Shown here: positions 4,165-44,419 of the stretch, one piece after another
Layout of the letters: each line of letters begins with the position of its first letter
Numbering within the stretch: position 1 is the first letter of the stretch
Program-made: the position numbers and the translations under genes
Origin: Aquificaceae bacterium
GTDB lineage: Bacteria; Aquificota; Aquificia; Aquificales; Aquificaceae
NCBI GenBank assembly: GCA_041640635.1
Contig: JBEPZX010000010.1
Span: forward strand, 1 to 44,419
Direction: 5' to 3'
DNA length: 44,419 bases
The notes under the pieces: model-generated
What the model saw: only the letters and a program-made list of their open reading frames with translations
What the model was told of the DNA's origin: nothing
Database searches by the model: none

Positions 4165-4857
<693 letters not shown>

Positions 4858-4933
4858 TTATACAAAGTATAAACAACTTTTATCGACTTTAATCTGCAAA
4901 GAAGTAAATTAAAAATTGAGGAGGTGAGGAGCA

Positions 4934-6343
4934 ATGATGGAACAACTGCTATTAAAAGAACATTTATCAAAAAAGGAAAAACTAGTTCTGTTTAGATGGA
5001 TACTAAAGGAGGAAATGGATGTTTTGGATGAGTATTGTGATATTGATAGCTTACCTAAAGGCTATAGATTGGAACTGTGTCACGTTCACGATGTAAAAAA
5101 GGTAAACATAGCAAGATTGTTGAGCGTCATAGAGTATTACGATCCAGATTTTATAAAAACCTTAGCTTTTACTGACCCGCGTGTTAGGACCTTTGTAGGA
5201 TATTACTTTGAGTTTTTGAAAACAAACCCATACGGTTACGAAGCTTTAGAGCCTTCTAACCTTTTTGGTAATTGGGACTTTATAAAGTACAAACTAAAAG
5301 TGCTTTTCCCTAATCTCTCCCTTGATGAAATAGAGAAATTCAAATTCAAAAGAAAAGAATTTATAGAGTATGTCAAGGAAAAAACGGGTGAGAGCTATGA
5401 AACCATAGAATCTAAGTTAAACAAAGCTACATGGTATGAAACGGTGCCCTATTTGCAACTTGAAGAAGAAATGTCTAAGATGTGGCATCCAGAACCTGTT
5501 ATGACAGATGAAGATTGGAACTTTATAAAAAGGCACGTAAAGGGAAGAAAGAACATCTTTATAAAGGAGAATGGTAAAGAAAAGTTTGTATATATAGATG
5601 TAGATCTTTCCGATGAAGAAATAGATAAATACAGAAAAGATAGAGAAAGCTTAAAAAAATTGCTAATGCAGCGCTACAACATAGATGAAAATGGTGCAGA
5701 GCAAGTCCTTAGGAAAGCGGGTTGGGAATCTGAAACTTATCATATAATACCACCTATACATACAGATGTGGTTTTGGATTATGGCAAAGAACATGAAAAG
5801 ATAAAGGAAGTAGAAACACAAGAATCATCAGAAAACTTTCACATGGTAGCTAACTTTATAAGATATTTAGGAGGTTTGGAGCTACAAATTCTCAACTACT
5901 ACGACCTTGTTTACGATAAATTAGAGGATCAAGTAAAGGAAATCTTAGACCTTATCATAAGAACACAAAGAAAGATACTTGGTAAACTCTTTGGTATTTT
6001 CTACACCTGTGACCCAATAATGGCTGAAGCTATACTTACCATAAATCCAGAGCGTTACGAATTCTTAAAGAGCCTTTCCGTTAAAGACACCGTAAGAGAT
6101 AAGGAGTTTAAGCTGTTTAGCAATCCAATAGCTTGGAAAAAGGTAAAAGAAAGAATAGTTATGAGGTTTCCAGAAATTACAGAGGAAGAGCTAGAGCAAT
6201 TAAAAGGACATAGAGAGAAACTTGTACAAATCCTAAAGACAAAAACCAATAACTCAGAAGAAACCATAGAAAAAGCATTAGAAGAGTGCGGATGGACAAA
6301 GGAAGAAGAAATACCAGCAGCTTTCAGGCAAATAGGACCTTAG
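4934..6343 (+). CDS. Hypothetical protein with three CsbD/YjbJ-like repeats and two half-ferritin-like segments
   Basis: 469-aa ORF with a GAGGAG SD. Internal repeats W-x2-(I/V)K...L(S/T)-x-(D/E)E...R...(A/C)(T/G)W at aa ~111-167, ~192-264 and ~398-454. Confidence 0.75.
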   Translation: MMEQLLLKEHLSKKEKLVLFRWILKEEMDVLDEYCDIDSLPKGYRLELCHVHDVKKVNIARLLSVIEYYDPDFIKTLAFTDPRVRTFVGYYFEFLKTNPYGYEALEPSNLFGNWDFIKYKLKVLFPNLSLDEIEKFKFKRKEFIEYVKEKTGESYETIESKLNKATWYETVPYLQLEEEMSKMWHPEPVMTDEDWNFIKRHVKGRKNIFIKENGKEKFVYIDVDLSDEEIDKYRKDRESLKKLLMQRYNIDENGAEQVLRKAGWESETYHIIPPIHTDVVLDYGKEHEKIKEVETQESSENFHMVANFIRYLGGLELQILNYYDLVYDKLEDQVKEILDLIIRTQRKILGKLFGIFYTCDPIMAEAILTINPERYEFLKSLSVKDTVRDKEFKLFSNPIAWKKVKERIVMRFPEITEEELEQLKGHREKLVQILKTKTNNSEETIEKALEECGWTKEEEIPAAFRQIGP

Positions 6344-41680: not shown

Positions 41681-43092
41681 CACTTTACCTCCTTAGCTAC
41701 AGACTCTTTGGGCACTTCTATCTTTGCAGAAACACTACCACCTTTTGAAATCATGTCAGCTATGTAAGCGGCAAGAGCTCTGAGTTCTTGATCCGTTCCA
41801 ACGAATCTTGGCATGTAGTGTGGCGGGTTATCCCTGTTGTAACTAGCTAAGAAGTTGTAAACTGTGTTGGCGTCCGCCATACCTTCAAACTTCTTACCAA
41901 AAGGTCTTAGTCCTGTGGAACCTGTTACGTTGTGACAACCGGAGCACTGCAATACAGCCACAGCTTTTCCAGCCATAATCATGTTCTGGTCGTTTATGTT
42001 CTTTAGACCTTCTGGAACGAACGCGCTGAGCTTCAAAAGTCCCTTTTCATTTATGGCAGGAACTTCAGATTTTATACCTTTTGCGGGGACGTCTCTAGCG
42101 ATTATTTGATTGACCCATACAAACTCTCCAGCTACGTAAGGTTTCCTTAAAGTTTCCCTTATCTTTTCCTCTGGGTATACTCCCATAAAGAATATGAGAA
42201 CGTATATGGGATACGCTACATAGTGTCTTGCAAGATTGGGGTTTATAGCGGTTAATACGAAGTGAGTAAGTACTAAGAGCACTATAAGTGCTATCAATGC
42301 ATACATCCAAGTAGGAACAACTCCGGACAGTATAACGTGAGACCTTTCAGGTAAAGTGGAGTAGTACCACGCAAAGAACATAAGACCAAACACTACACCA
42401 CCTATACCCCAGTAGGACATAACTCTAACGATTTCTTTTCTTATGTTTTCTTGAATTTTGCCTTTTATTAAAGAGGCTATTACGATACCTATGGTACCGG
42501 CTATGGCAAACATGAAGCTACTACGCATTAAGAGGTGTGGGAAGTAGTTCTTGTTGTAAAATGCATCAAGTATGTTGCCCGTGGTGAACCATTTTTCGTG
42601 TCCGGGTGATAGCATAAAGGATAGGATACCTACTATGATGTACATGGTTGCCCAAGAACCTACGGCGAAGGTCCAGGAAAGTCTCAACCAGCTTTTCTCA
42701 TCTATTTTGCCTAAGGTGTAGAAGAGTATATAAACCAGTGTAACTTCAGCTACAAACCATATCCACTCTGCAGCCCAAACCCAAACGAAGTTATGAATGA
42801 GTGCCGATATACCTCTTGGGTTTGCAACGGTAGCCGAAAACCATATCCCGGGACCGGTTATGGATCCAGAGACGTAAGAGAATACCAGTAGTGATAGCAG
42901 GTACTTTTTGATGTAGTCGTATATCTGCTTCTCTCCTGTCTTGTAGGCTTTTGTGGCAAGGTAAGCAAGCAAAATAGAAGCACCAACCGACGTATGGGAA
43001 GCCATAACGTGGATGCTAGCTATGATGGCGATTACTGTGGCACTACCTATTGTAGGCACGTACCACATAGGGTACAGACCCAGCACATCCAT
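41680..43092 (-). CDS. Cytochrome bd oxidase subunit I-like protein with a C-terminal cytochrome c domain
   Basis: HVMASH, GSITGPGIWF, WAAEWIWFVAE, IRETLRKPY and CSGCH...YMPRFVG; AGGAGG SD. Confidence 0.8.
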   Translation of the reverse strand: MDVLGLYPMWYVPTIGSATVIAIIASIHVMASHTSVGASILLAYLATKAYKTGEKQIYDYIKKYLLSLLVFSYVSGSITGPGIWFSATVANPRGISALIHNFVWVWAAEWIWFVAEVTLVYILFYTLGKIDEKSWLRLSWTFAVGSWATMYIIVGILSFMLSPGHEKWFTTGNILDAFYNKNYFPHLLMRSSFMFAIAGTIGIVIASLIKGKIQENIRKEIVRVMSYWGIGGVVFGLMFFAWYYSTLPERSHVILSGVVPTWMYALIALIVLLVLTHFVLTAINPNLARHYVAYPIYVLIFFMGVYPEEKIRETLRKPYVAGEFVWVNQIIARDVPAKGIKSEVPAINEKGLLKLSAFVPEGLKNINDQNMIMAGKAVAVLQCSGCHNVTGSTGLRPFGKKFEGMADANTVYNFLASYNRDNPPHYMPRFVGTDQELRALAAYIADMISKGGSVSAKIEVPKESVAKEVK

Positions 43093-43151
43093 GATGACAC
43101 CTCCTTGTTAAATGATTGTTAATCTTAACGCAAACATAACATAAATATAAC

Positions 43152-43165
43152 GTGATATTAATCAT
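43152..43165. promoter_or_regulatory. FNR/Crp-family-like palindrome upstream of the CydA-like operon
   Basis: GTGAT-ATTA-ATCAT versus consensus TTGAT-N4-ATCAA, about 60 nt upstream of the ATG at 43092. Confidence 0.45.
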
Positions 43166-43212
43166 ATGTCAAGCTGGTTTTCGTGTCTGCTCCACATACC
43201 TTCTGGTTTAAC

Positions 43213-43397
43213 GTCTTTTTTTTGCAAGAAGTCTCTGGTTTCTATAAGCTGGAAATGAATTGCAGTTGACAAGTGTTTAGTTTCGGTATATAATAGCCTT
43301 ACTGACGTAGGGCTGGGACAGTCCGAAGTTACGCCTGCGGAGAGTGCAAAAAGCACTCGTTGAAGCAGGAAGCCTCCACAGGTGGATGGTAGTTCAC
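43213..43397 (+). mobile_element. Non-autonomous IS200/IS605-family mini-element with no tnpA or tnpB
   Basis: Left-end-like CAAGAAG-TCTCTGGTTTCTATAAGCTGGA-AATGAATTG (43225-43262) and right-end-like GGAAG-CCTCCACAGGTGGATGG-TAGTTCAC ending at 43397. The left boundary is inferred. Confidence 0.7.
43266..43294 (+). promoter_or_regulatory. Perfect-consensus sigma70 promoter inside the mini-element
   Basis: TTGACA (43266-43271), N17, TATAAT (43289-43294). Confidence 0.85.
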
Positions 43398-43415
43398 AAT
43401 TCCAAGGTATGAAGG
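43301..43415 (+). ncRNA. TnpB omega-RNA (reRNA)-like scaffold plus flanking guide
   Basis: Stems GGGCTG/CAGTCC, CCTGC/GCAGG, GAGTGC/GCACTC and TCCAC/GTGGA; terminal GTTCAC; matches my recollection of tnpB 3'-end RNAs. Both ends are estimates. Confidence 0.7.
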
Positions 43416-43897
43416 TAAAGGTATTAAAAGGGAGCATTTTGGAAGTACAAGCTGATGCTATAGTAAATCCTGCCAACTCGTACGGTTTGATGGGCGGTGG
43501 TGTTGCCGGTGTCATAAAAAGATACGGTGGAGAGGAGATAGAAGAGGAAGCTATTTCAAAGGCTCCCATACCTGTAGGTTCTGCCATACACACAAGCACT
43601 GGAAAGCTAAATTTCAAATACGTTATACACGCACCTACTATGGAAGAGCCCGCCATGCCTACTACTGAGGAAAAAGTGAGAAAAGCGGTAAGAGCTGCAT
43701 TGGAGCTGGCAGACAGTTTGGAGGTAAAGGTTTTAGCTATGCCAGGTATGGGAACAGGTGTAGGGGGGTTGGAAAAAAGCACAGCGGCTAAGTGTATGAT
43801 AGAAGAAATTAAAAACTACGAAGTAAAGAACATCCAAGAAATTATCCTTGTGGACATAGACGATGAAATGGTAAAACAGTGGCAAAGTAACATTTAA
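43409..43897 (+). CDS. Macrodomain (ADP-ribose-binding/hydrolase) protein
   Basis: DAIVNPANS, GGGVAG, VIHAPT and PGMGTGVGG. The GTG at 43382 lies within the RNA element, so ATG 43409 is preferred. Confidence 0.88.
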   Translation: MKVKVLKGSILEVQADAIVNPANSYGLMGGGVAGVIKRYGGEEIEEEAISKAPIPVGSAIHTSTGKLNFKYVIHAPTMEEPAMPTTEEKVRKAVRAALELADSLEVKVLAMPGMGTGVGGLEKSTAAKCMIEEIKNYEVKNIQEIILVDIDDEMVKQWQSNI

Positions 43898-44419
43898 TGA
43901 AACTAATTTTCTCCGGTGGTTTTATAAATCAGGAAGGGCTTTACGAAGCGTCTATCGAAAGCGTGGAGTTTCCCAAATCTTTAGAGGAAGTAAAAGGAGA
44001 TGGCTTTTATGTTTTTTCCTACGACTTAACCAAAGATTTAACAAGTATTGAGATAAAAGAAAGTGGATTTCCAAAGATAGCAAAGCTAAAAATTGCGGAC
44101 ATAAAACCTTACTCTTTTGGGTATAAAGGCGCATACACTCTAAATTTTGCGGAATCTTCCCTTTCAAAAGAGGAGTTCAAGCAAGCAGTAAGGAAAATAA
44201 AACAATACATAGAAAATGGGGTTGTTTATCAGGTAAACCTGACCAACAGGTTCGATTTTGAGTTCTCTGGAGATATTGAAAGTTTCTTTTTAGATTTTTT
44301 CCACAGACAGCCTACGCCTTACGCTTTCTATCTGGAGCTAAAGGAGTTCTGTATCATTTCCGGTTCTATGGAGCTCTTTTTGGAGAAAAAGGGAAACTTA
44401 CTCACCAGCAAACCAATAA
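43897..44419 (+). CDS. pabB: Aminodeoxychorismate synthase component I / chorismate-binding enzyme, 3'-truncated
   Basis: Absent from the ORF track because there is no stop in the window. My translation: MKLIFSGG...IKQYIENGVVYQVNLTNRF...QPTPYAF...SGSMELFL...SKPI; TAATG coupling to the macrodomain gene. Confidence 0.8.
   Translation, partial: MKLIFSGGFINQEGLYEASIESVEFPKSLEEVKGDGFYVFSYDLTKDLTSIEIKESGFPKIAKLKIADIKPYSFGYKGAYTLNFAESSLSKEEFKQAVRKIKQYIENGVVYQVNLTNRFDFEFSGDIESFFLDFFHRQPTPYAFYLELKEFCIISGSMELFLEKKGNLLTSKPI

What the first reader, a model, noticed from the sequence alone, without database searches (positions are those of the whole stretch)
43213..43420. Stand-alone TnpB omega-RNA cassette: an IS200/IS605 mini-element reduced to left end, perfect promoter and guide-RNA scaffold
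Seen: a perfect TTGACA-N17-TATAAT promoter followed ~15 nt later by a GC-rich structured stretch (GGGCTG/CAGTCC, CCTGC/GCAGG enclosing GAGTGC-AAAAA-GCACTC, TCCAC/GTGGA) ending in TAGTTCAC. GGAC (43316-43319) could pair with the terminal GTTC as a pseudoknot. A second imperfect hairpin with a CTAT loop lies just upstream, and there is no tnpA or tnpB coding sequence in the window. Established: IS200/IS605 right ends encode the TnpB omega-RNA, and the flanking DNA supplies the guide. Inference: this is a protein-free guide-RNA expression unit that could load a TnpB or a nuclease-dead TldR-like protein encoded elsewhere. The predicted guide starts at 43398 (AATTCCAAGGTATGAAGG).
Basis: partly seen in the sequence, partly recalled or inferred. 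Interest (0 to 1): 0.9.

Follow-up and report, generated by a model that had tools for sequence, protein, structure and literature searches.

The report
Gene-less IS605 mini-transposon with guide RNA
This 186-base stretch is a real, partly worn, protein-free offshoot of a TnpB transposon that keeps the parent's promoter and guide-RNA scaffold and probably now also drives the host gene behind it; elements of this kind are already described.

Summary
Confirmed, and of a known kind. Window 43212-43397 is an internal-deletion derivative of the genome's one IS200/IS605 element (contig C8: Y1 tnpA with an internal stop, 379-aa tnpB with all three RuvC residues). It keeps the left end and tnpA promoter (87% identical) fused to the omega-RNA and right end (93%). 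An empty/filled pair of sites in two genomes fixes TAM TTTAA, end TCAC and no duplication. The RNA's 5' helix, pseudoknot and k-turn arm covary. Such ORF-less omega-RNA elements (PATEs, standalone omega-RNAs) are in print. Limits: the perfect promoter is inherited, not new; both end hairpins are decayed; the only TnpB found carries Pro8 at an otherwise invariant Arg and a 4-residue deletion; no second target or TldR was found; no RNA data were available. Two additions. The insertion splits a probable -10 box of the downstream macrodomain gene, so the element may serve as its promoter. Across relatives, 31 of 61 tnpB-less omega-RNAs (0 of 89 tnpB-linked) carry a GA(U/A)A(A/G)(C/U)CAA-type leader loop, mostly on a covarying hairpin; this copy lacks it, and I did not find it in print.

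The parts
43207..43211 (+). Target motif (TAM) TTTAA, host sequence just outside the left end
   Evidence: Same motif before the C8 element. Empty site G000 C2:107046 against the filled site in G001 C131 puts the boundary at TTTAA|C with no duplication. TTTAA precedes 19 of 22 orphan elements with this left end.
43212..43265 (+). IS200/IS605 left end with subterminal hairpin (CTAT loop) and GCAA/TTGC outer pairing; hairpin decayed in this copy
   Evidence: 43217-43295 is 87% identical to C8:27432-27354. Folded as DNA: -3.7 kcal/mol in a different fold, against -9.9 for the C8 left end.
43266..43294 (+). Sigma-70 consensus promoter TTGACA-17-TATAAT, inherited from the parent's tnpA promoter
   Evidence: 12 of 12. 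Same boxes and near-identical spacer upstream of tnpA on C8. Activity not tested.
43295..43306 (+). Deletion junction and predicted transcription start (about 43301, inferred)
   Evidence: C8 left-end similarity stops at 43295 and right-end similarity starts at 43305. Three G001 mini-elements share the junction, with 9 nt against 12 nt here.
43307..43397 (+). TnpB omega-RNA scaffold, which is also the right end of the element
   Evidence: 43305-43379 is 93% identical to the 3' end of the C8 element. Model R1, which includes this copy in its training set, scores it 83 bits. Covariation.
43310..43324 (+). 5' helix GGGCT/AGTCC; loop bases 43316-43319 pair with 43392-43395 as a pseudoknot
   Evidence: Helix 97% paired, 2 of 5 pairs with changes on both sides. 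Pseudoknot 100% paired, 1 of 4 pairs with a change on both sides. Same arrangement as the ISDra2 pseudoknot (PMC10097598 section 9).
43334..43369 (+). Long arm with a RAGATH-18-like kink-turn (GUU bulge; G.A, A.G, A.G pairs; C:G closing pair)
   Evidence: Rfam RAGATH-18 at 43334-43371, 38.5 bits, E 5.9e-5, below gathering score 44.9. Positions fit the k-turn rules tabulated in PMC8191799; my assignment from the sequence.
43370..43397 (+). Right-end hairpin, shortened in this copy, and terminal GTTCAC
   Evidence: 6-nt deletion and 1-nt insertion against sister copies. -2.9 kcal/mol as DNA against -4.9 to -10.5 in five other copies.
43398..43417 (+). Predicted guide (host flank); with the TAM it would match only the empty insertion site
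   Evidence: Follows from the TCAC end. None of the 26 other genome sites with a seed match of 9 nt or more has TTTAA before it. 0 of 32 exact 16-nt viral matches has it.
43409..43897 (+). Host macrodomain (ADP-ribose-binding) gene, followed by a pabB/trpE-like gene; probably transcribed from the element's promoter
   Evidence: NCBIfam NF001666 at 271 bits, above cut-off 246. No terminator-like site in 43000-44419. 5 of 8 orthologues have a TANNNT box 7-10 nt before the ATG; the two flanks of the insertion together form such a box 8 nt before the ATG.

Best explanation
A non-autonomous, ORF-less IS200/IS605 element (PATE, standalone omega-RNA locus). Shown: it arose by internal deletion from the IS605 family still present on C8; the deletion set the tnpA promoter directly before the omega-RNA; copies with the same junction sit at other TTTAA sites in a sister genome, so the short form has moved, by inference through TnpA in trans. 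Inferred: the promoter makes an RNA from about 43301 that folds into a TnpB scaffold (97 nt) plus a 16-20 nt guide from the host flank. A cognate TnpB could load it in trans and cut the empty TTTAA-plus-flank allele, which restores or spreads the insertion by recombination. This copy is probably no longer excisable (both end hairpins decayed, the genome's tnpA has an internal stop). The same transcript probably reads through into the macrodomain gene. I put identity at about 0.95, transcription at about 0.75, and present-day loading into an active TnpB at about 0.35.
For: Parent element with matching ends. TnpB family call above cut-off, NF040570 320 against 100; nearest natural solved relative ISDra2 TnpB, 220 bits. 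Boundaries from an empty/filled pair. Same-junction copies at three other sites in G001, one of them at the site where G000 holds the full element. Summed contig depth over the element 4,500-5,500 against 106-1,545 in flanking bins of run X1, with junction variants, as expected of a repeated element (not a copy number). Covariation of helix, pseudoknot and k-turn arm. Family pattern: 22 of 61 orphan omega-RNAs have a promoter of 10 or more of 12 within 110 nt, against 0 of 57 in a window shifted 230 nt upstream. Concept in print.
Against: No RNA evidence either way was obtainable. The C8 TnpB has Pro at a position that is Arg in 8 of 8 homologues and a 4-residue deletion next to the TAM-contact loop, so it may be inactive. 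G032, a 99% complete single-contig genome, holds an intact promoter-plus-omega-RNA element but only a broken tnpB remnant by this query; G001 (66% complete) gave no tnpB or tnpA match. No empty allele of the window's own site was found. The window's right-end hairpin, part of the RNA, is shortened. Promoter retention here has a second explanation, the downstream gene.
Confidence: 0.75

Rival explanations
1. Exapted promoter. The element inserted into the -10 box of the macrodomain gene and is kept mainly because its promoter now drives that gene and the pabB-like gene; the omega-RNA is a passenger 5' leader. An in-frame GTG at 43382 with AGGA 11 nt upstream could supply a start site. Not exclusive of the best explanation.
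For: 5 of 8 orthologues have TANNNT 7-10 nt before the ATG, 2 follow a tRNA-like sequence, 1 has neither. The flanks here form such a box 8 nt before the ATG. No other plus-strand promoter-like site and no terminator in 43000-44419. Promoter perfect while both end hairpins decay. The copy-specific indels shorten the AGGA-to-GTG distance and put the GTG in frame; the frame has a 1 in 3 chance, so this is weak.
Against: The empty allele was not seen, and the inferred native box has no good -35 partner. The RNA core is also intact, 93% identical to C8. Sister copies keep consensus promoters at unrelated sites.
Confidence: 0.35
2. Inert scar. A recent deletion product whose promoter and fold are simply inherited; nothing selects on it and it is decaying.
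For: Left- and right-end hairpins decayed. Parent tnpA broken, tnpB suspect. A strongly decayed copy, promoter included, exists in G001 C76.
Against: Changes in this copy spare the promoter boxes, the pseudoknot and the k-turn, though the numbers are too small for a test. The gene behind it appears to need a promoter.
Confidence: 0.2
3. Domesticated guide for a nuclease-dead TldR-like regulator or for defence, aimed at a host promoter or a phage.
For: The guide covers the start of a host gene.
Against: Only one tnpB-like gene was found in a 98% complete genome and it keeps the catalytic triad. No TAM-flanked second target in the genome or in viral contigs. Guides differ at every insertion site, as expected of flank-derived guides.
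Confidence: 0.04
4. An IS607-type RAGATH-18 (reRNA) locus.
For: Only Rfam match of note is RAGATH-18, E 5.9e-5.
Against: Below the gathering score. The parent transposase is Y1 type (PF01797, 149 bits). TnpB scores 383 bits on the IS200/IS605 model against 189 on IS607 (neither reaches its cut-off). TAM is TTTAA, whereas IS607 TnpB TAMs are mostly AGGAG or GAGGG (PMC13565253).
Confidence: 0.02

Closest known systems
PATE-like ORF-less IS200/IS605 elements of Geobacillus stearothermophilus (Meers et al., bioRxiv 10.1101/2023.03.14.532601; passages read)
   Same: No protein gene, both ends kept, omega-RNA encoded, said to need TnpA and TnpB in trans.
   Different: Different host and ends. The passages I read do not describe an internal promoter placed at the RNA's 5' end or a leader hairpin; extended data not seen. 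This copy has decayed ends.
Standalone omega-RNAs of OMEGA systems (Altae-Tran et al. 2021, not seen; as summarised in PMC10691335, passages read)
   Same: Mobilised omega-RNA loci without effector or transposase, in genomes that hold the effector; reported to work in trans.
   Different: Work in trans is not tested here. From memory, not from a call, the in-trans demonstration was with IscB.
ISDra2 TnpB and its omega-RNA (PMC10097598, section 9 and passages)
   Same: Terminal bases pair with the loop of the 5' helix as a pseudoknot; guide from the right flank; C8 TnpB matches ISDra2 TnpB at 220 bits.
   Different: Scaffold is shorter here (about 91-97 nt against 116), has a k-turn arm, and would be transcribed from its own promoter instead of being cut from tnpB mRNA.
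RAGATH-18 reRNA of IS607 TnpB (PMC11061315, outline and sections 5 and 10; k-turn in PMC8191799, passages)
   Same: Same k-turn sequence module.
   Different: Below the Rfam threshold; here the module lies in a Y1-transposase IS605 element, whereas that paper reports RAGATH-18 only with IS607 TnpB.

Membership tests
IS200/IS605 PATE (ORF-less element) | Left and right ends homologous to an IS200/IS605 element with Y1 TnpA | tested here: met
   87% and 93% identity to the C8 element ends; PF01797 on C8.
IS200/IS605 PATE (ORF-less element) | No tnpA or tnpB coding sequence between the ends | tested here: met
   186 bp in all; only the tnpB tail overlapping the RNA matches.
IS200/IS605 PATE (ORF-less element) | Insertion 3' of a fixed motif, no target duplication | tested here: met
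   Empty/filled pair for a sister copy; TTTAA in 19 of 22. The window's own empty site was not found.
IS200/IS605 PATE (ORF-less element) | Subterminal hairpins at both ends | tested here: inconclusive
   Present in sister copies, decayed in this one.
IS200/IS605 PATE (ORF-less element) | Mobilised in trans | tested here: inconclusive
   Same-junction copies at different sites show past movement; present mobility not testable, and the genome's tnpA has an internal stop.
TnpB omega-RNA | Homologous to the structured 3' end of a tnpB element, with terminal pseudoknot | tested here: met
TnpB omega-RNA | Expressed and bound by TnpB; guides cleavage | not testable with these tools
   No RNA holder listed; no assay possible.
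RAGATH-18 (Rfam RF03064) | Score at or above gathering threshold 44.9 | tested here: not met
   38.5 bits in the window, 35.7 on C8.
RAGATH-18 (Rfam RF03064) | Kink-turn with C:G closing pair and A:G at 3b:3n | tested here: met
   Read from the sequence at 43334-43369 against Table 1 of PMC8191799.
RAGATH-18 (Rfam RF03064) | Association with IS607 TnpB | tested here: not met
   Y1 TnpA; IS200/IS605 TnpB model scores higher.
TldR guide RNA | Cognate TnpB-like protein with inactivated RuvC | tested here: not met
   One tnpB found, D179/E266/D347 intact.
TldR guide RNA | TAM-flanked target elsewhere, usually in a promoter | tested here: not met
   None in the genome or among 32 viral matches.

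The most novel reading that the evidence does not exclude
These mini-elements are not mere deletion debris but a repeatedly evolved class of dedicated guide-RNA genes. In this phylum and in co-occurring hot-spring organisms, several left-end types have each been joined to a promoter and, in half of the cases, to a 5'-terminal hairpin with a conserved GA(U/A)A(A/G)(C/U)CAA-type loop that full-length elements lack. That loop would be an undescribed RNA signal that stabilises the RNA or routes it into TnpB in trans, letting protein-free elements parasitise the nuclease. The window's copy would be the minimal, hairpin-free form, further co-opted as promoter of a host operon.
Probability: 0.3. Interest if true: 0.6.

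Novelty: new member of a known kind. Interest (0 to 1): 0.3.

Why it matters
The element itself is an ordinary but clean example of a PATE with an omega-RNA. It offers a compact (about 91-97 nt), k-turn-containing scaffold with a defined TTTAA motif from a probable thermophile, and a natural test of whether TnpB loads a separately transcribed guide in its host. The family survey matters more than the copy: if the leader hairpin is real and functional, standalone omega-RNAs are under selection as expression units, which bears on their role, called unknown in PMC10691335, and could help guide-RNA design. The k-turn module also extends RAGATH-18-like structure beyond IS607.

Tried and rejected
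RNA evidence: no RNA holder listed; this says nothing on expression. Reads of the one DNA run, as contigs, showed the filled left junction but no empty allele. Empty allele by exact 20-nt flank in metagenomes: 5 matches, all unrelated loci. Exact 23-nt scaffold pattern in metagenomes: 0. Searches used a pattern with one N too many; their zeros mean nothing. It was corrected for genomes but the viral scan was not repeated, so viral copies are untested. Guide targets in viruses: 32 exact 16-nt matches, none with TTTAA. TldR and IS607 readings rejected (see rivals). The macrodomain gene's neighbourhood differs among relatives and G001 gave no match, so no orthologous empty site was available. The leader loop as a general host promoter signal: 66 pattern matches in 43 of 178 genomes; of 30 loci viewed, 12 were followed by an omega-RNA, 1 was a truncated element, 17 looked like background. 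The loop as a remnant of full-element leaders: 3 of 38 upstream segments matched, none as a leader hairpin, and many of the 38 are not true leaders. Rfam on 10 orphan loci gave only sub-threshold RAGATH-18, a tRNA and a weak match overlapping it. Earlier notes for this genome and look-alikes: none. No structure prediction or complex prediction was run.

Full report
Observation. The promoter is TTGACA 43266-43271, 17 nt, TATAAT 43289-43294, 12 of 12. The genome (1.43 Mb, 52 contigs, 98% complete) has 16 such perfect sites with 16-18 nt spacers, so a perfect site is uncommon but not unique. The scaffold alone folds with z -2.4. Rfam gives RAGATH-18 at 43334-43371, 38.5 bits, under the gathering score. 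The host is probably a hot-spring member of the Aquificales: inferred from the titles of the genome records holding the same RNA motif, many of them Aquificaceae, and from the one run that holds the stretch.

The parent element. BLAST finds the two halves of the stretch 1.5 kb apart on contig C8: 43217-43295 at 87% and 43305-43379 at 93%. Between them lie a Y1 tnpA with an internal TAG (PF01797) and a 379-aa tnpB (NF040570 above cut-off; IS200/IS605 model 383 bits, IS607 model 189, both under their cut-offs). These were the only tnpA and tnpB found by Pfam and tblastn. The TnpB keeps D179, E266 and D347 and its zinc finger, so it is not TldR-like. It does carry Pro8 where 8 of 8 aligned homologues have Arg, and a 4-residue deletion against its closest homologues right after the motif that aligns with the ISDra2 TAM-contact residues T123/N124. 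Its activity is therefore uncertain. The perfect promoter is the parent's tnpA promoter.

Boundaries and mobility. The stretch matched 9 of 61 relatives, own genome included. The same-genus genome G001 has three short elements with the same junction (9 nt from -10 box to scaffold, 12 here). One lacks the left-end hairpin. Its site is empty in our genome (C2:107046), which fixes the motif TTTAA, a first base C, a last TCAC and no duplication. The window element is thus 43212-43397, 186 bp. Another G001 copy, decayed, occupies the site where our genome has the full element. In run X1, summed contig depth over the element is several times that of the flanks, with small indels at the junction; this fits a repeated element but is not a copy number. 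In the window copy both end hairpins are weakened, so it is probably stuck.

RNA structure. In 15 aligned copies the 5' helix, the pseudoknot between its loop and the terminal bases, and both stems of the long arm are 98.6% paired, with 7 of 19 pairs changing on both sides (the sequences are related, so the shuffle counts are not probabilities). This is the ISDra2 arrangement (PMC10097598, section 9). The long arm has a standard k-turn by the rules in PMC8191799 (passages). PMC11061315 reports RAGATH-18 only with IS607 TnpB (section 5); here a sub-threshold version sits in a Y1 IS605 element.

Guide and neighbour. The guide is host flank. No second TAM-flanked target was found among 26 other seed matches of 9 nt or more in the genome or 32 exact 16-nt viral matches. 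Its natural target is the empty site, as in the restorative model of Meers et al.. The flank leads into a macrodomain gene at 43409. In 5 of 8 orthologues a TANNNT box lies 7-10 nt before the ATG, and the two flanks of this insertion together form one 8 nt before the ATG. The insertion therefore probably broke the gene's own -10 box. With no terminator and no other plus-strand promoter-like site, the element's promoter is the obvious replacement. The empty allele was not seen, so this is inference.

Family survey. A model built from 11 copies, mostly short elements, matched 67 of 148 genomes of the order, 200 matches. I held loci for the 30 returned and fetched 80 more of the listed matches by hand, added 96 pattern matches from genome contigs and earlier loci, and merged duplicates: 161 distinct hits, 89 tnpB-linked, 62 orphan, 10 with too little upstream DNA. 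One orphan (L075) was dropped as a false hit. Of 61 orphans, 22 have a promoter of at least 10 of 12 within 110 nt, with several unrelated spacers, against 0 of 89 linked copies (partly trivial, since that DNA is coding) and 0 of 57 in a shifted window. 31 of 61 carry a GA(T/A)(A/G)(A/G)(C/T)CAA or GAAACCAA loop, against 0 of 89 and 0 of 57; it mostly lies 12-17 nt after the -10 box, so its stem would start the transcript (one of the 31, L204, is an offset match and was left out later). Across 22 distinct instances the first four stem pairs are kept in 72 of 88 cells, against 45 on average when arms are shuffled (0 of 2000) and 23-46 when slid. Copies within a genome and kin inflate all these counts, the model favours short elements, and 'orphan' rests on one TnpB query plus motifs. 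The window copy has no such hairpin. Against a strict link to TnpB: G032, complete, has an intact cassette but only a broken tnpB remnant by this query.

Comparison with the literature. Meers et al. describe ORF-less PATE-like elements and state that PATEs often encode omega-RNAs that need TnpB in trans (passages). PMC10691335 summarises standalone omega-RNAs that work in trans and calls their role unknown (passages). PATEs with IStron ends appear in bioRxiv 10.1101/2023.11.20.567912 (passages). I found no description of the leader hairpin in searches; the library lacks most subscription papers, and supplements and extended data, which may hold such detail, were not seen. Earlier agent reports in this scan reached the same 'known kind' verdict for similar elements in other genomes; these are unchecked notes, not support.

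Verdict. Real; a new member of a known kind. Most likely a selfish, now immobile guide-RNA cassette whose promoter also serves the next host gene. Interest 0.3 for the element. The family-wide leader hairpin is the lead worth following.

Noticed in passing
L012:1478-1502:+, L143:1058-1082:+, L073:1457-1481:+, L069:1481-1505:+ and 18 further distinct instances: 5'-terminal hairpin with covarying stem and conserved GA(U/A)A(A/G)(C/U)CAA-type loop in tnpB-less omega-RNA elements of several left-end types; not seen upstream of tnpB-linked omega-RNAs and absent from the window copy. Function unexplained.
   Followed up: partly
L110, L123, L127, L014, L116, L146, L172, L132, 100-250 nt upstream of the scaffold: A second class of ORF-less elements with another left end, a TTGCAT-17-TAAAAT-like site and a longer leader with a GGTGGAG/CTCCACC stem; no Rfam match other than sub-threshold RAGATH-18 in those scanned.
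   Followed up: partly
G000 C8:27434-25760 (L006) and G001 C76 (L021): The same chromosomal site holds the full-length element in one genome and a decayed mini-element in the other: deletion in place, or replacement of one form by the other.
   Followed up: partly
L016:1500-1636 (G001 C131): Mini-element that has lost the whole left-end hairpin but keeps a perfect promoter, scaffold and right end, with a compensated pseudoknot.
   Followed up: partly
window 43382-43409: Copy-specific indels in the right-end hairpin put a GTG in frame with the macrodomain gene, 11 nt after AGGA; a possible alternative start.
   Followed up: no
L282 (G028 C1:901428): Left end, promoter and half of the leader hairpin without omega-RNA, directly before an AGGAGG-like site and an ORF: a possible second case of a captured promoter.
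   Followed up: no
G009: 35 omega-RNA model matches in one genome, at least 7 with the promoter-and-loop pattern: an expansion of short elements.
   Followed up: partly
window 43144-43172, minus strand: Near-consensus promoter (11 of 12) for the divergent operon at 43092-40361, whose first gene is a 470-aa membrane protein with a C-terminal CxxCH motif and no NCBIfam match.
   Followed up: no
G000 C3:44762(-) and C23:2764(-); C17:26420(-) and C19:36(-): Two pairs of similar sequences on different contigs, seen while scanning for hairpins; possibly paralogues or assembly duplicates.
   Followed up: no
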